NCBI GenBank assembly: GCA_000146465.1 | Contig: CP001945.1 | Direction: 5' to 3' (one strand) | DNA: 64,000 nt | Shown here: piece after piece, positions 5,564-60,849 of the stretch | Position numbering within the stretch: the first letter of the stretch is position 1 | How the letters are laid out: the number at the start of each line of letters is the position of its first letter | Translations under genes and position numbers: made by a program | The notes under the pieces: generated by a model | Told to the model about the DNA's origin: nothing | What the model saw: the letters and a program-made list of their open reading frames with translations, nothing else | Database searches by the model: none

Positions 5564-8338
5564 ATGGATTCTGAAAAGGAAGCTTTGAAGGAAAGGAAGA
5601 AAATGGAGAAGGAAGAGAAGAAGAGGCAGAAGCTGGAGAAATTCCTGGCAAAGAAAACACAAGAAATGAATGTTTCCAAGCCAAGGAAGGAGTACAAGGG
5701 AGATGGCTATGACCCGCTAGGGATTGAAGGGAAGTGGTACGAGTTCTGGGAGAACAACGAGCTTTTCAAGCCTATAGAGGGAAAAGAGAAATATGTAATT
5801 CCGATTCCTCCGCCAAATGTCACAGGAAACCTTCATATAGGACATGCAATGATGGTTTCAATTCAGGATACTTTGTGTAGATACAAGAGGATGTGCGGGT
5901 ATGAGGTTTTGTATATTCCTGGGACAGACCATGCAGGAATAGCCACACAGAATGTTGTATTGAAGCAATTGGAAAGAGAAGGAGTTGTCTCTGACAGAGA
6001 AGGGTTTCTTAAGAAGGCCTGGGAGTGGAAGGATAAGCATGGATCAAGAATATATGAGCAATTTAAGAGATTAGGGACGAGTGTAGACTTCAGCAGGGAA
6101 AGATTTACCCTAGATCCAGGGATGAACGAAGCTGTTGTTGATGCGTTTGTAAAGCTCTATGAAAGAGGCCTTATATATCGAGAGCTGAAAATTGTGAACT
6201 GGTGTGCCAAGCTGTCGACAACCATAAGTGACTTGGAGGTTAATCACGAAGAGGTGATGGCCAGCACAGATCTACAAGTAGATGGAGGAAAGTATGAGTT
6301 TGGGGTAATTTATCATTTTAAGTATCCCATGACAATAGATAAGGAATTTTCAGGAGATTATCTTTCGCTACCGGCAATTGAAGTGGCAACAACAAGACCG
6401 GAAACGATTCTTGGAGACACGGCGATATGTGTGAATGGAAAGGACGAAAGATTTGGAGCCAGAGGAATAAAGGAGACTTTTGGGGATGTTCCTGAAGGAA
6501 GCAAGCTCTATTGTGTAAATCCGTTGACCAGTGAGGTGATTCCTGTTGTCTTTGACGACTATGCAGATATGAGCTTTGGAACTGGAGTGGTGAAAATAAC
6601 ACCTGCACATGATGCAAATGACTTCGATGTATCGAGGAGACATGGACTTCCTTGCAAGATTGTGTTTGATGAAGAAAACAGGGTAATCATTGAGGGAGAG
6701 TTCAAGGGGCTAAAGAGATTTGAGGCAAGAAAAGCTGTTATTTCAAAGCTTACAGACATTGGCTTGTTTGTTGGAAAGAAGGAGTATCCTCAGGTGATTC
6801 CAAGATGTTCCCGATCTAATGACATTATAGAGCCTATTGTCAAGAGTCAATGGTGGATGGACTGTAAGGAAATGGCAAATAAGGCTATTGAGGCAGTTAA
6901 AGAAGGAAGAATAAGAATACTACCTGAAGGGGCAGAAAGGCGATGGTATAAATGGCTTGAGAATATCAGGGACTGGTGTCTATCGAGGCAACTGTGGTGG
7001 GGGCATCGAATACCTGCATACAGAATGCCTTCTGGAAAATGGTATGTTGGAAGAAGCAAGGAAGAAGCATTTTTGAAGATGAAGAATGAGTGTCCTGAGG
7101 ATGGATGTAGTATTGATGAGTTTGAGCAGGACGAGGATGTTCTAGACACATGGTTTTCTTCGGGCCTATGGCCGTTTGCCATTCTAGGATGGCCCAAAGA
7201 GACAGAAGACCTTCAAAAGTACTATCCTAGCACCTTGCTTGAAACAGGCAGCGACATTCTCTTCTTCTGGGTGGCGAGAATGGTGATGCTTGGAATTGAA
7301 CTGACCGGAAAAGAGCCTTTCAGCCAAGTGTTTCTCCATGGGATAGTAAGAGATGCACATGGAAGGAAGATGAGCAAAAGCCTTGGGAATGTCATTGACC
7401 CGATTTTTGTGATTGATGGATGTCCTCTTTCAAAGCTGATTTCGACAATGAGAAGCGGGAATCTCGATGAGAGGGAGATGAAGAGGGCAGAAGAAGTCCT
7501 ACGAAAGGATTTCCCAAACGGAATACCAAGGTGCGGGGCAGATGCTCTTAGATTTACTTTACTTTCCTACACCTCTGGAATGAAGGATATCAACCTTGAT
7601 GTACTGAGGGTGGAAGGATATCGAAGGTTTTGCAACAAAATATGGAATGCTCATAGATTTGTGAAGGCAGCAGTAGATGAGGCCATTGAAGAAAGCCTTA
7701 GAGGGTCCACTTGTAAGAAGAAATACGAGAAGTATATTCTTCCGGCTGATAAGCTACAGATTCGTTCTGGAGAAGGACCCGTTGAATGGATTCTTAAAAA
7801 AAGGAACGAGTTAATAGAAATAAGCCAGAGAATGATTGATTCATTCAACTTCATGGGAGCCACACAAGCAATCCATCAGTTTTTTATTTACGATCTGTGT
7901 GATGTCTTCATAGAGGTTGTTAAGAAAAACAAGAGCGAAAGATACATAGGGGTACTATTAAGCGTGTTTATCGATTCGATGAAGATACTCCATCCATTTA
8001 TGCCATTTATCACAGAAGAGGTGTTTTCTGATTATTTCGATAGTTCTATTTCCACTTCACCATATCCTAGGACAGATGGGTCTAACCATGAAAACAAGTT
8101 TTCTGGGACACTTCAAATTATAAGGCATGTAAGGGCAAAGGCAGAGTCAAAGGGATGGCCTAGGGTTGCAGTAGGGATTGCCCCAGGAGAAGATGTTGAC
8201 CTTGCAGACCTGGAGTTTGTCCGTCTGCTTTGCAAAAAAATTATCGAATTTAAGGTAGTAGAACATTCAGAAAGCTCAGAAAGCCATCTGTATGAGAAGG
8301 TAGGGGATTCTGGAGTATTTGTGAGCCAAGCAGATTGA
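5564..8338 (+). CDS. Valyl-tRNA synthetase
   Basis: HIGH motif ([12 protein letters not shown]), KMSKS motif ([12 protein letters not shown]), class I editing/anticodon-binding architecture; about 925 aa. First in-frame ATG at 5564; the track start at 5375 overlaps the upstream mannosyltransferase. Confidence 0.9.
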
Positions 8339-8363
8339 CAAGAACATAACTGATTAAAGTCTT

Positions 8364-9014
8364 TTAATTTAGCTTTTTGGCAGAGTGAGTGGAAACCAAA
8401 AAGTCTCTTCCCCTTCGGTAATATTCCTGTACATCACGTGGGCAGCTGAGAACCCACTTGTCCAGAGACACACGTATTTCCCCAAAGACACTTCGCATTG
8501 ATGGATTATTGAAGTATTGCTGCCTCACCATGGCAATGAAAGTTGTAAAGGTCACGAGGCTCGACTTTCTGAGGAATATCATTAGGAAGGAGAGAGGAAC
8601 AGCAAGAACCTCTGTAAACAATGCTAGTCTCCCCAGGGTGACATGGTATGCCGACAAGGAGACACAGATGGGATATATAGATGTTCTTTCGAAAGTCTTC
8701 TTGTTGGACAGAACAAATGAGCTGAGATGATATATCGACAGAAGGTAAAACGGGAGAAGAAGAGCCTCATGGGGAAACGTGAAGAACACTGTGATGCAGT
8801 AAATGTTTGGCTGTGACAGGATTTCCTTCATGGATGAGAGATGTGGAAGTAAGGAAATTGAGTATGACGATATCAAGCACAGAATGTTTACGAAGTTTGG
8901 CAGTGGATATATAGGAATTCTGATCAGATGAAGCACAATGTATAGTGTGTAGTTTACCGCAAACAAAGTATTCAGTAACATCCATGTCTTCTTAGTAGAA
9001 TTTATCTCTAGCAT
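8364..9014 (-). CDS. Hypothetical multi-pass membrane protein
   Basis: 216 aa with five or more hydrophobic helices; ATG start verified; no family assigned. Confidence 0.35.
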   Translation of the reverse strand: MLEINSTKKTWMLLNTLFAVNYTLYIVLHLIRIPIYPLPNFVNILCLISSYSISLLPHLSSMKEILSQPNIYCITVFFTFPHEALLLPFYLLSIYHLSSFVLSNKKTFERTSIYPICVSLSAYHVTLGRLALFTEVLAVPLSFLMIFLRKSSLVTFTTFIAMVRQQYFNNPSMRSVFGEIRVSLDKWVLSCPRDVQEYYRRGRDFLVSTHSAKKLN

Positions 9015-9162
9015 TTTTCTTAGAAGGGCTAAGGGATCAAGTGGTATTTAGAGAACGAAGTTTGGGGTGTTTCATGTAGTGTGCCAAATAACAAAATGCT
9101 GAATAGTGATATTTGAAACGTCCATAAAGACATAAAGGCAGGCGAGAAAGAAAATCTCGGGA

Positions 9163-10160
9163 ATGATAACTATCAAAGAGGCCTTGAACCAAGCTATAGA
9201 TGAAGAGATGGAAATGGATAAGAGAGTGTTTGTTCTTGGGGAGGAGGTGGGCATATCTGGAGGAAACAAAGGAGTCACTAGAGGTCTATACGAGAAGTAT
9301 GGAAAGTGGAGAGTTCTTGATACACCCATCAGTGAAATGGGATTCACAGGCCTGGGTGTGGGGCATCCTATCTAGGCCTAAGGCCGATAATTGAGTTTAT
9401 GACATGGAACTTTGCATTGCAGTCTATTGACCATATAATCAACTCGTGTGCCAAGACACTGTACATGTCTGGGGGGAAAGTTAGTTGCCCTATTGTATTT
9501 AGAGGGCCTAATGGATTCAATCCTGGATATGCAGCTCAACACACACAAGACTTCTGCAGCTACTATGGTGCAGTCCCCGGTCTTAAGGTTGTCGCTCCCT
9601 TCACAGCAAAGGATCATAAAGGATTACTGAAATCGGCGATCCGAGATAACAATCCAGTGGTATTTTTGGAAAATGAGACGCTTTACGATGATACATATAA
9701 GGACATAGAACAGGGATACATGCAATCACTAGATAAAGCTGTGATCGAAGTAGAAGGGTGCGACGTCACTCTTGTAGGAATTTCACTTTCAGTAAAGACA
9801 TGTCTGGAGGCTGCTAAGGCACTGAAAGATCTAGGGATTTCTTGTGAAGTTATCAACCTCGTGTCGATCAAGCCCATAGATAAACAAACATTATTGACCT
9901 CTGCCAAGAAGACAAAGCATGTGTTTGTAATTGATTTTGCATGGCCATCGTTCAGTGTTGCTTCCGAGATTTCTGCAATAATACACGAGAACTGCTTTAA
10001 AGATTTGATGGCTTCTGTTCAAAGAATAAACGCAAAAGACATTCCTACTCCCTACTCAGAGAAAATAGAAGCAATGGCGTTTCCAACATGTACAGATGTC
10101 ATTGATTCGGTGGTTGAAGTCTATAAAAGCACCTCCAAAGATAATAAATTAGGTCTTTAA
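9163..10160 (+). CDS. Pyruvate dehydrogenase E1 component beta subunit, interrupted by an apparent +1 frameshift in a GGGG run at 9360-9363
   Basis: Frame 1 (9163-9375) encodes the N-terminus (VFVLGEEVG...[17 protein letters not shown]). Frame 3 (from 9363) continues [28 protein letters not shown], matching the E1-beta core. Adding one G restores a continuous protein of canonical length. Confidence 0.75.
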
Positions 10161-10168
10161 TTTCTACT

Positions 10169-10528
10169 CTAAAGAAGTTCTTCAAACTCAACTAATCCAC
10201 TGTTTTTATCGTTAACAGCAAATGTGTCGTCATTTATTTCTCCATCCTCCTTCAATATCTTAATTTCTTTTGGCATATACTTCCTGTCAATATCTGCCCT
10301 CTTCTCATCCCCGTCTCTAACACGTAGTAAAACTATGTCGCCTGGAATCATTCGAACACGTCTGTAGTCTCTTCCACGAACCTTTGCAGTCCTGTAAACT
10401 CCGTCAGAACAACTTACCTTAAACTGTCCTTGGCCAAGGGGACATATTATTTGCCCATACACAGTCCCCTCTTCTTCTGCAAATACCAAAGCTCTGTCGT
10501 TCGTAAATCTTCCTTTCCTTCCTTTCAT
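10169..10528 (-). CDS. Translation initiation factor eIF1A
   Basis: S1/OB-fold core (TVYGQIICPLGQGQFKVSCSDGVYRTAKVRGRDYRRVRMIPGDIVLLR) with acidic C-terminal tail; 119 aa. Confidence 0.8.
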   Translation of the reverse strand: MKGRKGRFTNDRALVFAEEEGTVYGQIICPLGQGQFKVSCSDGVYRTAKVRGRDYRRVRMIPGDIVLLRVRDGDEKRADIDRKYMPKEIKILKEDGEINDDTFAVNDKNSGLVEFEELL

Positions 10529-10592
10529 CCACCCCTAGATCTCCGCCAATTTTATCACAACCAATCTTGTAAAGAAAATTCAAAAGTCAACA

Positions 10593-11177
10593 TTAGGGGC
10601 CATGAGTTTTAATTATCCCTTTTGAAGCCATGTATGCAGCTAGGCTCCTACTCGCAATTCCCCTATGGCTTATCCTGTTTTTCTCGTCAGTTGGCATATT
10701 TTTTAGGACACCATTAAATCCATCGGGAATGAAAATATACCCAAATTCTGTTTTGCAATCTTTCTCTGGCTCTGTGATAGAGCCCTTCAGTTTCCCTGAA
10801 AACACCTTCTTGACTATTTCTCCATTTTCATAATGGGCAATTCCCAAGCTACAGACTGCTGTGGCGCTTTTATTCCCTATCTTCTCTACAATCTCCCAAA
10901 TCTTCCGGGTGCCTATTTCGAGAAAATCCTTCACATAGACACCGGGAAATCCTCCTAAGGCTTCAAGAGAAAACGAAGTGTCGTCAACTATCACTGCATC
11001 CTTTGGGTTTATAAAGGGCGCCGCTTGATCCAGTTTGTGTTCTACAATCTTTTCTGAAGGCCCTTGGATTTCGGTCATTGAAATTCTCATGTGATCTATG
11101 TCTGTCTTGAGGAACTCTTTAACCTCATTTAGTTTTTTCAAATTGGTTGTTGCAAAATAAATTTTCCCCGTGGTCAT
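10593..11177 (-). CDS. Inosine triphosphate pyrophosphatase (HAM1/ITPA)
   Basis: IYFATTNLKKLNEVK N-terminus; FGYIFIPDGFNGVLKNMPTDEKNRISHRG matches the HAM1 C-terminal signature. Confidence 0.8.
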   Translation of the reverse strand: MTTGKIYFATTNLKKLNEVKEFLKTDIDHMRISMTEIQGPSEKIVEHKLDQAAPFINPKDAVIVDDTSFSLEALGGFPGVYVKDFLEIGTRKIWEIVEKIGNKSATAVCSLGIAHYENGEIVKKVFSGKLKGSITEPEKDCKTEFGYIFIPDGFNGVLKNMPTDEKNRISHRGIASRSLAAYMASKGIIKTHGP

Positions 11178-11392
11178 TCCTAAGGGTATCAGTTCGTTAA
11201 TAATTCACTCCTTCCTGTATTTTTCGATCCCTCATGCCGTTCTTTCAAAAGACAGGTGAATGTGAATATGAATTAGCACGGAGTAATTTCACAAGGAGCT
11301 ATCCGGATAAGCCTAAGTCTATTAAAACAATTGGTAATAATCTATTTATGGAAACAAACTAATTTTTTAAATCGTAAAATAGTTTGCCCTAA

Positions 11393-31457: not shown

Positions 31458-31556
31458 TTCTCTACAAATTAGCCTTGATACATAACCAAATCACTTACCT
31501 TCTTTAAAGCCCTCAAGTAAATTTTTTTTTATTGTTTATTCGGCCAAGATACTTGA

Positions 31557-31804
31557 ATGGCACCTCTCCTGCCCCCGATGATCAATCCAAAGCTATTGAT
31601 GGTGACTGCAACAACAGCATATGTGTTTGTATTTTACACACTGGCTATAAGAGTAAGTTTTGTCCACGTAATTTCTAGCCATTGTTTCATAGTCCAACTG
31701 CAGCCGAAGATGTCCTAATTACCTTGTCTTCGATTGTCTTGTTTAGTGCCCTCCTGATCCACGCTATTTTAGGGTTTGAAGAGGAAAAGACAAAGCATAT
31801 GTAG
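31557..31804 (+). CDS. Candidate small two-TM protein with a putative 26-nt spliceosomal intron (31653-31678); speculative
   Basis: ATG 31557. Exon 1 ends ...YTLAIR at 31652; GTAAGT at 31653; TAATTT-containing tail; AG at 31677-78. Exon 2 (PLFHSPTAAEDVLITLSSIVLFSALLIHAILGF...) runs to a stop at 31802-04, giving about 73 aa; unspliced it is a 53-aa ORF (31557-31718). Weak FxYT...PF resemblance to DPM2-like small membrane subunits. Confidence 0.2.
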
Positions 31805-31833
31805 ACATTCAGCATATAATGCCCGAAGTACTA

Positions 31834-34303: not shown

Positions 34304-37300
34304 CTAGACTTTATTATTAAAGAAGTCTACATTGTATATAAGATCGAAAGAGTTTGTCCCGCATTTCACGGGATTTCCCACAGTTATGGAGGCAGAGGGA
34401 TTAGACAATTGATCTTCAAGGTGGAATGCTGCAGCTGTTTTGAAGTTGGAGTAGCAGCTTTCGAAACTCATTTTCTGGATAAGAGAGTCGCCAATTCCAA
34501 GTCCATGCCTACTGAAGGGAGAGTAGTCGCCTTTTCTTGTCATATAGTCAGCTACAAGAAGAAGATGCCGAGCATCAATTGAAATTCCATAGACATCGAA
34601 AACCTTCACTACTTCGTTGATTATAGCATGTCTTGCAGCCTCAATCCCAAGCGTTAGATACACATTGTATATATCATTAGACTCGGAATTGTAGATATCT
34701 AAGAGATCTAGTAGATCCTCATAGACACCGGGAGCCACCTCTATCCTTCCTGTCAAAGAGGAGATGGAAGGGCTTTCTACAAAGAGAGTATTTCCGGAGA
34801 TCGAGGCCTTTTTTATGCCTTTGGTTTCTCTCACCACAACTGTAGGAAGGATAGATTCGATTATTGAGGATATCACTTCGTTAAATCCAGAAGGATACAG
34901 CATCTCAAATGAAAGTATGTTTTTTGACTTCCTTGTAAAGTTTATGAGATTCTCCTCTTCAGTACTGCTTGAGTTATCGGTATGGTCAATTTCGTCAATA
35001 GTCTCGGGATGAGTAGTATCATCACTGTCCTTTTCAGTGTTTTCATTCTCGCTGGTATCTACACATATATAGTCACTCTTTGAATTACTTTCCTCATCAC
35101 TGTCACTCTCATCCTCTTCCTCGTTTTCTTTGTTTTCATCTAGTTCCTTTGAACTATCTTTATTTCCCTCTTCCATTCCTAACTTATATTTTACTTTAGA
35201 TAGCATTTTCAGTTTACTTCCAAGTATCTTCAGGAACTTTCGGTCCAAAGCCTCGCTTGCAAGGTCCACAAAGTTGTCCAGGTCAAACACCATTCTAATT
35301 TTCTTCTGAAAGACCCCGTCAATCATCACAATTTCCTCAGAGACCCTAAATTTCCTGACACAATCTTTCAGTGTTATCTTCTTTAAGCATGTACCAATAT
35401 CAAAATTCAACTTTTTCCTGATAGGAATAGTAACCAAAGGCGTCTTTATGGACTTGGATGCTACCAATAGAATTTCTCTGAGCCTAGGAACTCCAAGAGT
35501 CACGTTCTTTTCTCCTACACCAGCTAGATGAAAGGTGTTGAGAGTCATCTGAGTGGAGGGTTCTCCTATCGACTGTGCAGCTATAATCCCGACAGATTCT
35601 CCTGGGTCGGCTAGAGAGCATACATACCTACTTTCCAGAAATCTCTTAAGCTCTTCGTCAAAAAACTCTATCTCTTTTTTGAACCGAGGAGACAAGAAAT
35701 CTTCGTATCTGTTGCTAAGCTTGAAGGAAGACAAAGATAGCTCCTTAAAGAGAAAGGCATTTCTTCGGAAAAACTCAGGATCGTCCAAATAGCTTGACTT
35801 CGTGCAGTCAAGGCCGTCCTCGCCATAAACAAACTGAACTATCTTTTTCCCAATCCGTGCCGATCTGTCATACTCAACCTTTATCCCCTCCATGTGCTTA
35901 ACTAGGCATCTTTGTAGATATCCGGAATTGGCAGTTTTGATTGCAGTATCAATAAGCCCTTCTCTCCCTGCCATGCAATGGAAAAAATATTGTGATGGAT
36001 TGATACCATCCAAAAAGCCTTGATATATGTACCCTCCAGAGGATGGATCAGGATCCAGCGGCTTGAAGCAAGGCAATGTCTTTCCACTAGCCATCACCGG
36101 GACTCTCCGTCCCTCCAGCTCTTGCTGTCCTAGAGCACCTGAAATCTGGCTCAGATTAACAATCGAACCCTTGGATCCTATCGAAACAATCAATTCCATA
36201 CCGTTGTCCGGAAAACCTTTCTTCAATCCTGAAGGAACGGATGCATTAACTATCTCTGAGGTTATCTTGTTCATTTCTCTTCTCATTATAGAGTCCAAGT
36301 AAGCTTTTTTGTCGTCGCATAAGTAAAAGTCTGGATTCGCTTCCATGTACTCCTTCTGAAGCTCCCTTACCTTCTTGTCTTTGGTTTCCATCACTTTTTT
36401 TCTTTTCGCATTCGCATCATTGCTAAGAATAAGATCATCTGCTCCTATTGTAAACCCATACATTTGAAGATATTTGTTGCAAACTCTTCCTATATATGTT
36501 AGTAGGTCATTCGAGGCTGCAAACCCCCTAATCTCTCCGCAGGCATGGGCTAAGGACTTGAAAGTTGGCCCTATTGAGTTCTTGTCCAAAATCCCTGTAA
36601 TTATATTCCCTTCACTAATTCTTAGAACGCTTTCTTCCGAATGCTCCCTCCATGCGTCTTTTGGAACCTTGGTTTCAATTTCAATATTTAAACCCAGCCC
36701 GAGGTTCTTTATTATTGCTGAGAGCACTTGCTTTCCAGAATAGAGTCTTACAGGCTTGAGAATACAGGGCTTATCTATGGTAATTCGTCTTCCATCCAAT
36801 CCAGAATTCACTAGAGTAAAGTAATCTTCTTCGGAAAAGAACGAGTTTTTCATCGTCAAGATTGCTGCAGCAACAATGTGATCTTGGGTAAGGCCTCTTA
36901 TTGGTTTCCCGTCGGTGGGGACTAGATAGTTGAAGTCATTCATGACAATATGTCTAGCCTCGGCCTCAGCAACATAACTTTGTGGAAAATGAATGTTCAT
37001 CTCATCTCCATCAAAGTCTGCGTTGTAAGATTTACAGTTGGCATAATGCATTCTTAATGTCCTTTCTCCTTTCAGCACCTTGCACTTATGAGCCATAATG
37101 CTTGGTCTATGTAAAGTCGGCTGTCTGTTCACAAGTACCACATCTCCATCCACCAAATGTCTCCAAACAACCTTCTTTCCATCCAGGAGCTGGTTTGCCA
37201 AGGCAAATCTCTTTTCGTCAGGCATGTGGCTTAAACTAAGCATTACATCTCCATCCTGTAGGTATAAACTTCCCGGATAGGTAGATCCATTCACAATAGC

Positions 37301-38485
37301 CTTTTTCAATTTGCTTACATTGAAGCTAGTTACTCTCTCTGGAAATGTCAGAACTTCCGCAAACACAAAAGGAACTCCTATCTCCCGTGTCTCTAGATTA
37401 GGGTCTGGGGATATGACAGTCCTCGCCGCGAAGTTAACTCTCTTTCCCATTATGTTTTTGCGGAACAGCCCTTCCTTCTTTTCAAGAATCTGCTTGTGTC
37501 CCGGTGGCGTTATCAAACCGATATTCCGTTTCCTTAGGTTTGAATTATCAAACGACGAAAGAACAGCACCTTGCAGCTCTGGCCAGTATGAAAGGTCTTT
37601 TTTCACCAATTCATTGATGGTGAGAATGTCGTTAAAGGAAAAAGTCTGAGGATTCGGGGCCTTCTTCTCATTTAAAAAAGACACCGGACGGAATCTATTG
37701 GGTGTGACAGGTATACTTGTCAAAAAGAACATATTCGGGTCTTTTGTAGAGAAGATGGAGCCAATCAAGTCGGCTTCATTGGAAAACAAATCTTCCACAA
37801 GCTCTCTAATAAAATCCGGGAAAAGCAGCTCCGAATCCTTTTCATTCTCACTATTTTCATCATCCCTTTGGAGGGACTTTAATATCTTTATGTTTGTTCC
37901 TTTATAGATCTTTGGATTGGCATGTCCACATCTCACACATTTCTTTTTTGAATTTATACTAGAAAAGAAGTGGCGCACCATCTCCTGGTACTTATCTGTT
38001 GGAGGCCCAGGTCTGTTTTTCCTTGAGGATTCCACTCTCTTACTAACAACACTGTACAGCTCCTCTTCCTCCGAAGTAGCATACAGCTCATCCAAGCCGT
38101 CTATTTCTTCTCCATTTCTAAGAAGAGAGAACTTACAGAACATAATAAGCCGATCATAATTTGTTATTCTAAAGTGCCTGCACTGGAAGCAACAACACCT
38201 AACTAATGAGAGCAGCGAGTCGAAGAATATCGGATTGAAAACAGGCTTAAATAGCTTTATGCGTCCAAAATGTCCTGGGCAGTTTAGAAGCGACAAATTG
38301 CAGGTTTTACAGTTGGACGAGAAGTCTAATGGCCCCATTCTCAAGTCGTACAGGCCTCCACGCACAGGATGCCCGAACTTGTCGAAAGTAGATGGCTCCG
38401 TAACATCCATGCAACTAGCCTGTTCTATTTCCTTTTCAGAGTATACTCCAAACGATATCTTCTTTGGATGAAATTTCATAACCAT
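34304..38485 (-). CDS. DNA-directed RNA polymerase I largest subunit (RPA1/A190)
   Basis: Universal NADFDGDEMNIHFPQS catalytic motif with the Pol I-specific HFPQ variant; zinc-binding N-terminus; large acidic insertion (EEDESDSDEESNS...) typical of A190; no CTD heptads. The track N-terminus (38486-38635) is the reverse complement of tRNA-iMet; real start taken at 38485. Confidence 0.8.
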   Translation of the reverse strand: MVMKFHPKKISFGVYSEKEIEQASCMDVTEPSTFDKFGHPVRGGLYDLRMGPLDFSSNCKTCNLSLLNCPGHFGRIKLFKPVFNPIFFDSLLSLVRCCCFQCRHFRITNYDRLIMFCKFSLLRNGEEIDGLDELYATSEEEELYSVVSKRVESSRKNRPGPPTDKYQEMVRHFFSSINSKKKCVRCGHANPKIYKGTNIKILKSLQRDDENSENEKDSELLFPDFIRELVEDLFSNEADLIGSIFSTKDPNMFFLTSIPVTPNRFRPVSFLNEKKAPNPQTFSFNDILTINELVKKDLSYWPELQGAVLSSFDNSNLRKRNIGLITPPGHKQILEKKEGLFRKNIMGKRVNFAARTVISPDPNLETREIGVPFVFAEVLTFPERVTSFNVSKLKKAIVNGSTYPGSLYLQDGDVMLSLSHMPDEKRFALANQLLDGKKVVWRHLVDGDVVLVNRQPTLHRPSIMAHKCKVLKGERTLRMHYANCKSYNADFDGDEMNIHFPQSYVAEAEARHIVMNDFNYLVPTDGKPIRGLTQDHIVAAAILTMKNSFFSEEDYFTLVNSGLDGRRITIDKPCILKPVRLYSGKQVLSAIIKNLGLGLNIEIETKVPKDAWREHSEESVLRISEGNIITGILDKNSIGPTFKSLAHACGEIRGFAASNDLLTYIGRVCNKYLQMYGFTIGADDLILSNDANAKRKKVMETKDKKVRELQKEYMEANPDFYLCDDKKAYLDSIMRREMNKITSEIVNASVPSGLKKGFPDNGMELIVSIGSKGSIVNLSQISGALGQQELEGRRVPVMASGKTLPCFKPLDPDPSSGGYIYQGFLDGINPSQYFFHCMAGREGLIDTAIKTANSGYLQRCLVKHMEGIKVEYDRSARIGKKIVQFVYGEDGLDCTKSSYLDDPEFFRRNAFLFKELSLSSFKLSNRYEDFLSPRFKKEIEFFDEELKRFLESRYVCSLADPGESVGIIAAQSIGEPSTQMTLNTFHLAGVGEKNVTLGVPRLREILLVASKSIKTPLVTIPIRKKLNFDIGTCLKKITLKDCVRKFRVSEEIVMIDGVFQKKIRMVFDLDNFVDLASEALDRKFLKILGSKLKMLSKVKYKLGMEEGNKDSSKELDENKENEEEDESDSDEESNSKSDYICVDTSENENTEKDSDDTTHPETIDEIDHTDNSSSTEEENLINFTRKSKNILSFEMLYPSGFNEVISSIIESILPTVVVRETKGIKKASISGNTLFVESPSISSLTGRIEVAPGVYEDLLDLLDIYNSESNDIYNVYLTLGIEAARHAIINEVVKVFDVYGISIDARHLLLVADYMTRKGDYSPFSRHGLGIGDSLIQKMSFESCYSNFKTAAAFHLEDQLSNPSASITVGNPVKCGTNSFDLIYNVDFFNNKV

Positions 38486-38566
38486 TTTGAAGAAGGGTCG
38501 TTTTGAGAATGAAATTGAAAATGCAGATAATCCTAGGGAGATGCCGATCTTGATAGGCCATCTTAA

Positions 38567-38639
38567 AGCATGGTGGCGCAATGGAAGCGCGCTGGGCTCA
38601 TAACCCAGAGGTTGTGTGGTTCGAATCCCACCCATGCTA
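38567..38639 (+). tRNA. tRNA-Met (initiator type), anticodon CAT
   Basis: AGCATGGTGGCGCAATGGAAGCGCGCTGGGCTCATAACCCAGAGGTTGTGTGGTTCGAATCCCACCCATGCTA. A1:U72 acceptor end, GGG/CCC anticodon stem, CAT anticodon and GTTCGAATC T-loop closely match eukaryotic initiator tRNA. Confidence 0.85.
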
Positions 38640-40623: not shown

Positions 40624-40695
40624 GGCTCGGTGGTCTAAGGGTATGATCTCCGCTTTGGGTGCGGAGGGCTCCAGGTTCAAATCCTGGCCGAGCCC
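40624..40695 (+). tRNA. tRNA-Pro, anticodon TGG
   Basis: GGCTCGGTGGTCTAAGGGTATGATCTCCGCTTTGGGTGCGGAGGGCTCCAGGTTCAAATCCTGGCCGAGCCC is nearly identical in architecture to eukaryotic tRNA-Pro, with anticodon loop TTTGGGT. Confidence 0.85.
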
Positions 40696-40784: not shown

Positions 40785-41822
40785 ATGGAAGAATACACAC
40801 TCTGCTCCTCAAGTACCGAGCAAGGCGAAATACCAGTCATTCACATCAAAAGATTCAAGGAGGCCCCTCCATTGTTTCCAAGAAACAAGTCTCAGCTGCA
40901 GTATATGTATCTCCCAAACAAGTCCCTATTTATCGGGCCAAACACCATTCCAAGGTCTAGTGATTATCAAGTAAATGTCCTTACAACCAAGCTTAAAAAG
41001 AGACTCAAGCATGATCTTTCTCATCCGTTTCTGTGTCTTTCGATGAATTCCGATAGATCATTCTTTGAAGGGAGGTTTACCTTTGTCTCCACGGTCCAAA
41101 TCCCAGAAAGTGTTGAAGAGATGTGTTTTGTCAAAGGTAAGGAGAGGATAGTTCATGTCAAAGAAAAAACAGATGTAAATACAGACGTGAGAAAAGAAAT
41201 AAAATTCGACCACATAAAGGACAAACAGAACGATTCATACAAAGATGTCTGCCAGGACTTTTTGCTTGGAAAGTTACTTGAAGGCATTGGGGACAAAAAG
41301 ATAAATATCATCATTAGAGACTCCACCATCAATAATATTCTGTCAAAAGAAGCATATATACACTTTTATGTAAAGAAGAAGGATGAAAAACTGTACATTG
41401 TTTTTGACGAAGTTTACACTAGAGAAGTCAAGTATTACGACTATCTCTCGAAGTATGGGGAGGAGGTTGTTCGATCTCTGAAATCTTCGGAAACCCGTAT
41501 GTATTCCAGTTCGGAAGCAGTGGTTGTTGTGTATTCATCAACTCTCTTCTACGATTCCTCTGGGCTTCATAGACTGTTTAGTGGAATTGACGTCGAAAAG
41601 TCCATCGACATGGTGGTAAATATTGAAGATGTAAGAGCTGTAAAAAGCTCAGGATCCTTAGGAGACGAGCTGAAGGTGCTTTTTGGAATTAAGTTTGAGG
41701 AGGGAGAATATGTCCTTAATGATAAGAAGATATATGTGTTGGAGCCAAGCGGGGAAAAGTTTAAATTCAATGGAGTTGTGTTTACTGATTTTATGGACTC
41801 CCAGGAGCCTATAAGCGATTAA
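40785..41822 (+). CDS. Hypothetical protein
   Basis: Track ORF starts with GTG inside tRNA-Pro; first ATG is 40785, preceded by CCCC; 345 aa; unassigned. Confidence 0.35.
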   Translation: MEEYTLCSSSTEQGEIPVIHIKRFKEAPPLFPRNKSQLQYMYLPNKSLFIGPNTIPRSSDYQVNVLTTKLKKRLKHDLSHPFLCLSMNSDRSFFEGRFTFVSTVQIPESVEEMCFVKGKERIVHVKEKTDVNTDVRKEIKFDHIKDKQNDSYKDVCQDFLLGKLLEGIGDKKINIIIRDSTINNILSKEAYIHFYVKKKDEKLYIVFDEVYTREVKYYDYLSKYGEEVVRSLKSSETRMYSSSEAVVVVYSSTLFYDSSGLHRLFSGIDVEKSIDMVVNIEDVRAVKSSGSLGDELKVLFGIKFEEGEYVLNDKKIYVLEPSGEKFKFNGVVFTDFMDSQEPISD

Positions 41823-41849: not shown

Positions 41850-42140
41850 ATGGAAAGCAAAGTAAAGGTGATTTCTTCGGACAACAAGGTGTTTGTTCTT
41901 GACTATGACGTCTCCATACAAAGTCAAACACTTCGAACATTTTTTAGCCGGCCAGAAATGTTCCTAGAATCTATCTCCAGGGAGGTTAAGCTTCCGGTCA
42001 AATCACGGCATCTGAAGAGGATTGTCGAGTTTCTGGAATTTAAGTATCTTTCAGACTCAGATAAGGAACCTAAGGAGTTTAAAGTTAGTGACTCAGAAGC
42101 TTTGGAACTTCTGGATATTGCTGTATATCTCAAAATCTAG
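41850..42140 (+). CDS. Elongin C / Skp1-like BTB-fold protein
   Basis: 96 aa: KVKVISSDNKVFVLDYDVSIQSQTLRTFF...LKRIVEFLEFKY...ALELLDIAVYLKI is collinear with Elongin C (YVKLISSDGHEFIV...ALELLMAANFLD). Confidence 0.55.
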   Translation: MESKVKVISSDNKVFVLDYDVSIQSQTLRTFFSRPEMFLESISREVKLPVKSRHLKRIVEFLEFKYLSDSDKEPKEFKVSDSEALELLDIAVYLKI

Positions 42141-60365: not shown

Positions 60366-60432
60366 GTTTTGAGTCCCAGAAGTGGCTTAGGACCGTAGGA
60401 TGATATACTGCACAATTCTAGAATTTGAAGTT

Positions 60433-60666
60433 TTATTTCTCTCCCTGGGAGTACGAAAACTTTAAAACCTGTTTATCAACCATCTCCAGAACCTTGAGTG
60501 TCTCTTTTATTTGGTCTTCAATAAGCCTTCTTTCATATTTGTCCGTGGTTTCACTCATTGCATCAAGCTTTCGTTTTAGAGTGGCTAGTTCATTTTCATA
60601 GGCTTTTCTTTCCTTACCGAGCCTTTGAAGAGCTTCTTCTGCTACAGAGTGTTTTACCTCTACCAT
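60433..60666 (-). CDS. Small coiled-coil protein
   Basis: 77 aa, heptad-rich (ELATLKRKLDAMSETTDKYERRLIEDQIKETLKVLEMV); ATG verified; unassigned. Confidence 0.3.
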   Translation of the reverse strand: MVEVKHSVAEEALQRLGKERKAYENELATLKRKLDAMSETTDKYERRLIEDQIKETLKVLEMVDKQVLKFSYSQGEK

Positions 60667-60849
60667 TAACGGGCGTGATATTTAAAAATTTATCATTTTC
60701 TAGGCATTACGGTTTCAGGCCTCATTTCTACTTAGCATTTATCCCCAGAAAGCGGAAATTAATTCGGTGTACATACGAAGCGAAATGTTTCTCGAACAAT
60801 AGTTAAGCCTTCTTTGTAGGATTGAAAAATATGTCTTCTAGATGCCCTT

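What the first reader, a model, noticed from the sequence alone, without database searches (positions are those of the whole stretch)
9340..9410. Apparent +1 frameshift in a GGGG homopolymer inside the pyruvate dehydrogenase E1-beta gene
The E1-beta reading frame breaks exactly at the G-run 9360-9363. Frame 1 ends [11 protein letters not shown], while frame 3 continues [17 protein letters not shown].... Inserting a single G gives ...[17 protein letters not shown]..., which reproduces the canonical GVG-xxxx-GLRPIVEF spacing of E1-beta. This is either a homopolymer sequencing or assembly error, a recent pseudogenisation of a mitosome-era metabolic gene, or a site needing +1 ribosomal frameshifting.
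Basis: partly seen in the sequence, partly recalled or inferred. Interest (0 to 1): 0.55.

Follow-up and report, generated by a model that had tools for sequence, protein, structure and literature searches.

The report
One-base deletion breaks parasite PDH gene
The pyruvate dehydrogenase E1-beta gene of the tiny-genome parasite Encephalitozoon intestinalis really has lost one G from a run of Gs, which most likely makes it a very young dead gene; database annotators had already flagged this break.

Summary
The window is Encephalitozoon intestinalis ATCC 50506 chromosome IV. The PDH E1-beta reading frame switches from frame 1 to frame 3 at GGGG 9360-9363. Adding one G restores a gapless 332-aa E1-beta.

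It is not a sequencing error. The same GGGG is in the Nanopore+Illumina telomere-to-telomere assembly and in an independent Logan assembly. The same split products are deposited for the 2010 Illumina/Sanger assembly and for at least one other isolate.

All relatives examined (E. hellem, E. cuniculi, two unnamed Encephalitozoon, Ordospora) have an intact gene. It is the only split gene among 18 tested neighbours and 58 ORFs in the window.

The shift needed is -1, not +1. There is no slippery heptamer and no downstream structure, and the frameshift is not conserved in other species.

The repaired protein keeps every invariant E1-beta residue, and lineage-specific acceleration is not significant. 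The two ORFs together omit residues 68-79, a core beta-strand.

Best reading: a recent one-base homopolymer deletion producing a young pseudogene. MicroAnnot's supplement already lists this locus as "frameshift, sequence error or pseudogene". Low novelty, modest interest.

The parts
9163..9375 (+). 5' fragment of PDH E1-beta in frame 1: 70 codons plus TAG. Native residues 1-67, including the invariant catalytic-type Glu58, are followed by three out-of-frame codons (H-P-I).
   Evidence: Transket_pyr profile 3-66, E = 2.3e-12. (tblastn aa 1-67). Deposited as a 70-aa protein, UTX45094.1 and KAL7347901.1.
9360..9363 (+). GGGG run and site of the one-base deletion. The inferred ancestral sequence is GTG GGG GCA (five Gs). 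It is also the only place where a tRNA-Gly could re-pair after a -1 slip (GGG 9361-9363 to GGG 9360-9362).
   Evidence: sequence. (the two HSPs overlap at exactly 9360-9363). (codon alignment: relatives have GTC GGN GCN). (repair restores a single Pfam match).
9373..9375 (+). Premature TAG that ends the frame-1 reading, four codons after the deletion.
9336..9362 (+). Frame-3 open stretch upstream of the junction, following the frame-3 stop TGA at 9333-9335. Together with the TAG at 9373-9375 it bounds the interval (9336-9375) in which any frame change must occur.
9363..10160 (+). Frame-3 continuation encoding native residues 68-332 plus the stop: the rest of the Pyr domain and the Transketolase_C domain.
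9399..10160 (+). The 253-aa ORF from the first in-frame ATG (native Met80). This is what GenBank annotates as 'pyruvate dehydrogenase subunit beta'.
   Evidence: (P0007, 100% identity). (ADM11403.1, KAL7345961.1, KAL7347902.1, KAL7349869.1).

Best explanation
This is a genuine genomic one-base deletion in Encephalitozoon intestinalis. One G was lost from a former GGGGG run (GTG GGG GCA became GTG GGG CA), most simply by replication slippage.

The deletion splits the E1-beta gene of the orphan PDH E1 (the pyruvate dehydrogenase E1 enzyme) into two ORFs. One is a 70-codon ORF that ends at a premature TAG. The other is a 253-codon ORF that starts at internal Met80.

Neither product encodes residues 68-79, which form the end of a helix and a core beta-strand of the TPP (thiamine-pyrophosphate cofactor) pyrimidine-binding domain. 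The longer product also lacks the invariant Glu58. Standard translation therefore cannot yield an active E1-beta.

The gene is a very young pseudogene. It is present in the sequenced E. intestinalis isolates and intact in every relative examined.

Shown here: the lesion, its position, its reproducibility across assemblies, its absence from relatives, and the absence of recoding signals. Inferred: that it causes loss of function, and that it arose by slippage.
For: The lesion is real. The window is 100% identical to the T2T assembly CP075161.1, which was assembled from Nanopore reads and polished with Illumina/Pilon. It is also 100% identical to a 3,292-nt Logan contig from ERR13302946. The 253-aa product is deposited from the 2010 assembly, which used Illumina at 40x with Sanger finishing. 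It also carries three KAL accessions spaced about 1,950 apart, consistent with the three extra isolates of PMC12697097 sequenced at 303-361x. One of these has the 70-aa piece under the adjacent accession. No intact E. intestinalis version appeared among the hits.

The lesion is specific. E. hellem, two unnamed Encephalitozoon and O. colligata (L005-L007, L009) and E. cuniculi (L002 and GB-M1 P0122, 333 aa) all have uninterrupted ORFs. Only PDHB is split among 18 syntenic genes. No other split gene was seen among the window's 58 ORFs.

The lesion is young. Pairwise dN/dS is 0.04-0.05, like the neighbours. The repaired protein keeps 39 of 39 invariant and 79 of 80 columns that are at least 90% conserved. 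Extra E. intestinalis-specific changes amount to about 1.8-fold and are not significant (p = 0.13-0.49).

The effect is disruptive. An AF2 (AlphaFold2) model of the E. hellem orthologue (pLDDT 94.6) has a helix at 58-70 and a strand at 74-78. Residues 68-79 are encoded by neither ORF. Glu58 aligns with Glu59 of human PDHB.

There is no rescue signal. The RNA fold of 9364-9463 has z = -0.21. There is no tandem-slippage heptamer in the sequence. The alignment is collinear, so there is no intron.

MicroAnnot's supplement lists NC_014418:138903-139900, which is 998 bp and so the same length as 9163-10160, under 'frameshift, sequence error or pseudogene'.
Against: There is only one lesion, and every catalytic or invariant residue is preserved. 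Sequence alone therefore cannot separate 'dead very recently' from 'still used through recoding'.

Relaxed selection is not demonstrable.

The sequenced isolates are nearly identical to each other, so persistence of the lesion under selection cannot be judged.

The gene is under strong purifying selection in all relatives, so loss in one species needs an explanation. The status of the E1-alpha partner gene could not be checked.

No transcript or protein data were available. The isolate evidence rests on accession numbers, not on DNA that I read.
Confidence: 0.72

Rival explanations
1. The deletion is real, but full-length E1-beta is still made by -1 ribosomal slippage. A P-site tRNA-Gly on GGG 9361-9363 re-pairs with GGG 9360-9362. 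The next codon is then GCA (Ala), which gives exactly ...[13 protein letters not shown]... The gene would be down-tuned rather than dead.
For: Re-pairing on G_GGG would be perfect, and the product would be the canonical protein. The gene shows no further decay. The orthologue is strongly constrained in all relatives.
Against: There is no X_XXY_YYZ tandem site. There is no significant downstream structure (z = -0.21, 82 of 200 shuffles fold as well). The zero-frame stop lies three codons (nine bases) beyond the slip codon, so it cannot act as an A-site pause there. The frameshift is not conserved in any other species. A literature search found no report of programmed ribosomal frameshifting in Encephalitozoon. 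From general knowledge, a single-tRNA slip on a four-base run without a stimulator is expected to be inefficient.
Confidence: 0.09
2. The deletion is real, and the 253-aa C-terminal product still has a selected role, made from Met80 by its own initiation or by reinitiation 24 nt after the TAG. The 70-aa piece might contribute too. The role could be as a structural partner of E1-alpha. This would be a truncated or split gene rather than a pseudogene.
For: E. intestinalis-specific amino-acid changes are concentrated upstream of the break: 6 of 67 sites versus 7 of 255 (p = 0.03). The C-terminal part shows no excess: pN for Eint-Ecun is 0.110 versus 0.106 for Ehel-Ecun. GenBank annotates the 253-aa ORF as the protein.
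Against: Neither piece encodes residues 68-79, a core beta-strand, and the long piece lacks invariant Glu58. All six N-terminal changes are conservative, as expected if they arose under selection before the break. Compared with the N:C distribution in other species, the contrast is not significant (p = 0.07). No separate start signal was identified.
Confidence: 0.1
3. The break is a homopolymer sequencing or assembly error, and the real gene has GGGGG.
For: Breaks at homopolymers are a classic artefact of some sequencing platforms. MicroAnnot's category name leaves 'sequence error' open.
Against: Independent data sets and platforms agree: 2010 Illumina plus Sanger finishing, 2023 Nanopore polished with Illumina, a Logan de novo assembly of an unrelated run, and at least one further isolate at over 300x Illumina. 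From general knowledge, a four-base run is not error-prone on Illumina. All 17 neighbouring genes tested are intact.
Confidence: 0.02
4. The break is repaired at the RNA level, by RNA polymerase stuttering on the G-run or by editing that adds a G to the mRNA.
For: No direct evidence. Rescue of frameshifted genes by transcriptional slippage is known in reduced endosymbiont genomes (own knowledge).
Against: From general knowledge, known transcriptional slippage needs long A or T runs of about eight or more bases; here the run is four Gs. No such mechanism is reported for microsporidia in the papers searched. Whether the ERR13302946 contig derives from RNA could not be determined.
Confidence: 0.03

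Closest known systems
Heterotetrameric pyruvate dehydrogenase E1 beta subunit (for example human PDHB, PDB 3EXE chain B; E. cuniculi ECU04_1160)
   Same: Both have Transket_pyr plus Transketolase_C domains. All 39 invariant columns are kept. It lies in the same syntenic position as in E. hellem, E. cuniculi and Ordospora.
   Different: The reading frame is interrupted by a one-base deletion, so no single ORF encodes the protein. As in other microsporidia, it belongs to an orphan E1 that reportedly lacks E2 and E3 partners (own knowledge; context in PMC2742732).
Homopolymer-indel pseudogenes in reductive genomes, including other E. intestinalis loci listed as 'frameshift, sequence error or pseudogene' by MicroAnnot
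   Same: It is a single-base loss in a short homopolymer in an otherwise well-conserved gene of a shrinking genome. It is one of about 11-12 such loci among some 1,940 genes.
   Different: The lesion is extremely young: it is the only one, and there is no measurable relaxation. The gene is under strong constraint in all sister species.
Programmed -1 ribosomal frameshifting (viral gag-pol type: slippery heptamer plus downstream pseudoknot)
   Same: A -1 shift would be required, and tRNA re-pairing on G_GGG is possible.
   Different: There is no X_XXY_YYZ heptamer and no significant downstream structure. The overlap arrangement is not conserved in relatives.
Transcriptional-slippage rescue of frameshifted genes at poly(A) tracts in endosymbiotic bacteria
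   Same: Both involve a frameshift at a homopolymer in a reduced genome, affecting a gene that otherwise looks functional.
   Different: The tract is only four Gs rather than a long A or T run, the organism is a eukaryote, and there is no evidence of heterogeneous transcripts.

Membership tests
PDH E1 beta subunit (Transket_pyr + Transketolase_C) | Both Pfam domains present above the gathering threshold, in order | tested here: met
   In the repaired protein, PF02779 scores 127.4 bits (profile 3-172) and PF02780 scores 119.3 bits. The fragments individually score 47.3 bits, and 69.3 plus 117.2 bits.
PDH E1 beta subunit (Transket_pyr + Transketolase_C) | Family-invariant residues retained, including the Glu equivalent to human beta-Glu59 | tested here: met
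   39 of 39 invariant columns are kept. Glu58 aligns with residue 59 of 3exe_B.
PDH E1 beta subunit (Transket_pyr + Transketolase_C) | One uninterrupted ORF encoding the whole subunit | tested here: not met
   Frame 1 stops at 9373-9375, and the rest of the gene is in frame 3.
Sequencing or assembly artefact | The lesion is not reproduced in independent data sets | tested here: not met
   The same GGGG or the same split products are found in the T2T assembly, the 2010 assembly, the Logan ERR13302946 assembly and at least one other isolate.
Programmed -1 ribosomal frameshift site | Slippery heptamer X_XXY_YYZ at the shift site | tested here: not met
   The zero-frame sequence is GGU GUG GGG CAU CCU, so only a single-tRNA G_GGG slip is possible.
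Programmed -1 ribosomal frameshift site | Stable stimulatory structure 5-9 nt downstream | tested here: not met
   MFE is -19 kcal/mol against a shuffle mean of -18.4 (z = -0.21). Only a 4-bp GGCC/GGCC hairpin is present.
Programmed -1 ribosomal frameshift site | Frameshift arrangement conserved in related species | tested here: not met
   Five related genomes have an intact single ORF.
Programmed -1 ribosomal frameshift site | Trans-frame protein actually produced | not testable with these tools
   This needs proteomics or a reporter assay.
Transcriptional slippage site | Long homopolymer (about eight or more A or T) | tested here: not met
   The run is four Gs.
Spliceosomal intron bridging the frames | Extra sequence relative to orthologues, bounded by splice signals | tested here: not met
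   The alignment is collinear, with one base missing and none extra.
Pseudogene | Disabling lesion relative to functional orthologues | tested here: met
   A one-base deletion creates a premature stop, and a core strand (residues 74-78) is left unencoded.
Pseudogene | Relaxed selection (raised non-synonymous rate, further lesions) | tested here: inconclusive
   The excess of lineage-specific changes is about 1.8-fold and not significant. There are no further lesions, and dS is saturated.
Pseudogene | Lesion fixed in the species rather than in one culture line | tested here: inconclusive
   One search gives accessions consistent with three further ATCC isolates, and the 70-aa piece is explicit in one. 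I could not read the isolates' DNA. A JGI metagenome scan found neither allele.
Pseudogene | Partner gene (E1 alpha) also decaying or lost | not tested
   E1-alpha lies on another chromosome, outside the window. No route to its sequence was found with the tools.

The most novel reading that the evidence does not exclude
The GGGG allele is maintained, and the reduced microsporidian ribosome slips -1 on G_GGG often enough to make functional full-length E1-beta. This would be a stimulator-free, single-tRNA recoding event that throttles expression of the orphan PDH E1 in the smallest known nuclear genome.
Probability: 0.08. Interest if true: 0.65.

Novelty: already known. Interest (0 to 1): 0.25.

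Why it matters
Microsporidia keep an orphan pyruvate dehydrogenase E1 (alpha plus beta, reportedly without E2 or E3) whose role is unresolved. In every relative examined here the beta subunit is under strong purifying selection, with dN/dS about 0.04-0.07.

A natural, apparently species-wide frameshift in E. intestinalis would act as a ready-made knockout. It would show that the enzyme can be dispensed with in a human-infecting Encephalitozoon. It would also catch gene loss in progress in the smallest known nuclear genome.

There are practical consequences too. The 253-aa 'pyruvate dehydrogenase subunit beta' entries should be treated as pseudogene fragments in metabolic reconstructions. The 254-aa E. 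cuniculi EcunIII-L entry is a mis-annotated intact gene.

The lesion itself is an ordinary homopolymer deletion and has already been flagged by re-annotation work.

Tried and rejected
1. A frameshift shared with E. cuniculi. The 254-aa EcunIII-L annotation suggested it. I rejected it because the DNA is an intact 333-codon ORF and GB-M1 encodes 333 aa.

2. Sequencing error. Rejected on independent assemblies.

3. Intron. Rejected because the alignment is collinear.

4. Downstream frameshift stimulator. None was found.

5. Reading the DNA of the three other isolates. The look-up of encoding contigs returned only the Logan contig for the 253-aa product and the T2T record for the 70-aa product. 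The isolate evidence therefore stays at accession level.

6. Nature of ERR13302946 (DNA or RNA). It is not mentioned in any held paper. Its two contigs overlap by 30 nt, which equals k-1 and indicates a graph break rather than a transcript end. This remains unresolved.

7. Literature on this specific lesion, or on recoding in Encephalitozoon. Only MicroAnnot's coordinate table mentions the locus. Pombert 2013 (PMC3623445) is not held. The scRNA-seq and T2T supplements gave nothing on PDH.

8. Metagenome scan for either allele, four or five Gs. There were no hits.

I used the E. hellem orthologue instead.

10. E1-alpha status in E. intestinalis. I found no way to obtain a microsporidian E1-alpha query, so this was not tested.

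Full report
WHAT THE WINDOW IS

The best protein match of the downstream ORF is 'pyruvate dehydrogenase subunit beta [Encephalitozoon intestinalis ATCC 50506]' at 100% identity (P0007). Window 7163-11375 is 100% identical to CP075161.1:151953-156165 of the telomere-to-telomere assembly GCA_024399295.1. GC content is about 40%, and the window tiles into 58 closely packed ORFs. This fits a microsporidian chromosome core.

CHECKING THE OBSERVATION

- Frame 1 from ATG 9163 reads [10 protein letters not shown]...[11 protein letters not shown] and stops at TAG 9373-9375.
- Frame 3 is open from 9336 and reads ...[18 protein letters not shown]... to 10160.
- Positions 9360-9363 are GGGG, flanked by T and C.
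- Pfam matches Transket_pyr profile positions 3-66 on the first ORF, and 65-172 plus Transketolase_C on the second. Adding one G gives one continuous 3-172 match.
- tblastn with the E. hellem orthologue breaks at exactly residue 67, with the two HSPs overlapping at 9360-9363.
- The repaired protein aligns with human PDHB (3exe_B) over residues 2-317 with no gap at the junction.

The direction is mislabelled, however. Codon GGG 9361-9363 and the next required codon GCA 9363-9365 overlap by one base. The lesion is therefore a one-base deletion, and a ribosome would have to shift -1, not +1.

IS IT A SEQUENCING ERROR? NO.

- The T2T assembly, made from Nanopore reads and iteratively polished with Illumina reads using Pilon, has the same sequence.
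- A Logan de novo assembly of the unrelated run ERR13302946 is identical over 3,292 nt and carries both ORFs.
- The 253-aa product is deposited from the 2010 assembly as ADM11403.1. That assembly used Illumina GAIIx at 40x with Sanger finishing.
- The same product also has three KAL accessions about 1,950 apart. This is the spacing expected for three separate E. intestinalis proteomes. I take them to be the ATCC 50507, 50603 and 50651 isolates, sequenced at 303-361x Illumina.
- In one of these, the 70-aa piece (KAL7347901.1) has the accession adjacent to the 253-aa piece (KAL7347902.1). The frameshift is therefore explicit in at least one other isolate.
- No intact E. intestinalis E1-beta appeared among the hits listed from a database of 5.8 billion cluster representatives.
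- I could not read the isolates' DNA directly, so this evidence rests on accessions.

IS IT SPECIFIC?

The orthologues are single uninterrupted ORFs in the same syntenic position (ValRS, TMEM33, PDHB, eIF1A, and in the Encephalitozoon genomes Ham1). This holds for:
- E. hellem (L005);
- two unnamed Encephalitozoon from Logan assemblies (L006, L007);
- E. cuniculi (L002:2764-3765; GB-M1 ECU04_1160, 333 aa);
- Ordospora colligata (L008, L009).

The 254-aa E. cuniculi EcunIII-L entry that at first suggested a shared frameshift is an annotation artefact on intact DNA.

Of 18 syntenic genes tested against the window, only PDHB is split. ORF tiling and Pfam checks found no other split gene in the 64 kb.

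ORIGIN OF THE LESION

Relatives read GTC GGN GCN at Val-Gly-Ala. E. intestinalis reads GTG GGG (G)CA. The intact ancestor would therefore have carried a five-G run, and one G was lost. Replication slippage is the simplest cause; this is inference.

CONSEQUENCE FOR THE PROTEIN

A high-confidence model of the E. hellem orthologue (pLDDT 94.6) has the same numbering up to about residue 180. It places a helix at 58-70 and a beta-strand at 74-78.
- The 70-aa product has native residues 1-67 followed by HPI.
- The 253-aa product starts at Met80.
- Residues 68-79, including that core strand, are encoded by neither product.
- The long product also lacks invariant Glu58, which aligns with Glu59 of human PDHB. 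From my own knowledge, that is the glutamate that activates the thiamine-diphosphate (TPP) aminopyrimidine ring.

Standard decoding therefore cannot give an active subunit.

AGE OF THE LESION AND SELECTION

- Synonymous sites are saturated between species (pS 0.6-0.8).
- Pairwise dN/dS for PDHB is 0.04-0.05, in the range of its neighbours.
- The repaired protein keeps 39 of 39 invariant columns and 79 of 80 columns that are at least 90% conserved across 105 diverse homologues. Its single deviation is shared by the whole genus.
- E. intestinalis-specific amino-acid changes number 15 of 322, against 8 for the E. hellem lineage and 11 for E. cuniculi. In the other genes the corresponding counts are 32, 35 and 35. 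The roughly 1.8-fold excess is not significant (Fisher p = 0.13-0.49).
- As a rough inference, an excess of at most about 7 replacements over about 740 non-synonymous sites corresponds to at most about 1% neutral divergence. The break is therefore very recent compared with the species split.
- One oddity remains. The E. intestinalis-specific changes are concentrated upstream of the break: 6 of 67 sites versus 7 of 255 (p = 0.03, or p = 0.07 against the distribution in other species). All six are conservative. This is weak and unexplained. It fits changes that arose under selection before the break better than free drift afterwards.

RECODING SIGNALS

- The only possible slip is a single tRNA-Gly moving from GGG 9361-9363 to GGG 9360-9362. 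It would produce exactly the canonical ...GLGVGASYLG...
- There is no X_XXY_YYZ heptamer.
- The 100 nt downstream fold no better than shuffles (z = -0.21).
- The arrangement is not conserved in any relative.
- Four Gs are far shorter than known transcriptional-slippage tracts (own knowledge).
- The alignment is collinear, so no intron bridges the frames.
- Searches of the held literature found no report of programmed frameshifting in Encephalitozoon.

PRIOR KNOWLEDGE

MicroAnnot (PMC10815200) counts 11-12 'frameshift, sequencing error or pseudogene' loci in E. intestinalis. Its supplementary table lists NC_014418 (by the accession series, chromosome IV of the 2010 assembly) 138903-139900. That is 998 bp, exactly the length of 9163-10160. 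Its position is consistent with the E. cuniculi and T2T coordinates. The T2T GenBank record deposits the two pieces as separate proteins. I found no paper that discusses the locus or decides between error, pseudogene and recoding.

VERDICT

This is a real one-base homopolymer deletion, present in all available E. intestinalis data and absent from relatives.
- Most likely it is a very young pseudogene of the orphan PDH E1 beta subunit (0.72).
- Residual possibilities are low-level -1 slippage (0.09), a still-useful truncated product (0.10), RNA-level repair (0.03) and sequencing error (0.02).

Novelty is low because the locus is already flagged. Interest is modest: it may serve as a natural knockout relevant to the unresolved role of microsporidian PDH E1.

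Noticed in passing
L002:2764-3765 (E. cuniculi EcunIII-L, LFTZ01000004.1): PDH E1-beta is annotated there as a 254-aa protein (KMV66319.1) starting at the internal Met. The DNA, however, is an uninterrupted 333-codon ORF, the same length as GB-M1 ECU04_1160. This is a start-site mis-annotation, not a frameshift.
   Followed up: yes
window 9163-9363 versus 9363-10139: E. intestinalis-specific amino-acid changes in PDHB cluster in the 67 codons upstream of the break: 6 of 67 sites versus 7 of 255 (p = 0.03). All six are conservative (V4I, R5K, E20K, V31I, H36K, A65G). The downstream part shows no excess. This is weak and unexplained.
   Followed up: partly
L008 about 3725 (O. colligata GCA_004324945.1) versus L009: The Spo11/TP6A homologue is called as 227 aa in one O. 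colligata strain and 313 aa in the other. A single G-to-A difference on the + strand appears to create a TGA on the coding (minus) strand, though I did not check the reading frame. This may be a strain-specific nonsense polymorphism in a meiosis gene.
   Followed up: partly
window 10593-11177 (-); L009 11358-11763: A Ham1/ITPase gene sits between eIF1A and the amino-acid transporter in the four Encephalitozoon genomes that cover this interval (the L007 contig ends within Ham1). It has no counterpart at the syntenic place in Ordospora colligata, where there is an empty gap of about 400 bp.
   Followed up: no
window 31458-31833 and 60366-60849: Besides the PDHB break, these are the only two stretches longer than 350 bp without an ORF of at least 90 aa in an otherwise tightly packed window. 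Their content was not examined.
   Followed up: no
window 38567-38639 (+) and 40624-40695 (+): These are tRNA-Met(CAT) and tRNA-Pro(TGG). The tRNA-Met overlaps the first roughly 70 nt of the longest ATG-started reading of the 1,443-aa minus-strand ORF (34304-38635). That gene's true start is therefore probably further downstream.
   Followed up: no
window 40785-41822 and 41850-42140 (+): Two ORFs of 345 and 96 aa lie in the same frame, separated only by two stop codons and 27 nt. Neither has a Pfam match. They could be two genes or one gene interrupted by a nonsense codon.
   Followed up: partly
L001 and L010 (Logan ERR13302946): An unrelated ENA run of unknown nature yields E. intestinalis contigs 100% identical to the window. 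The one junction examined overlaps by exactly 30 nt (k-1). The sample has more than 600,000 contigs, so the parasite is a minor component. No paper held cites the run.
   Followed up: partly
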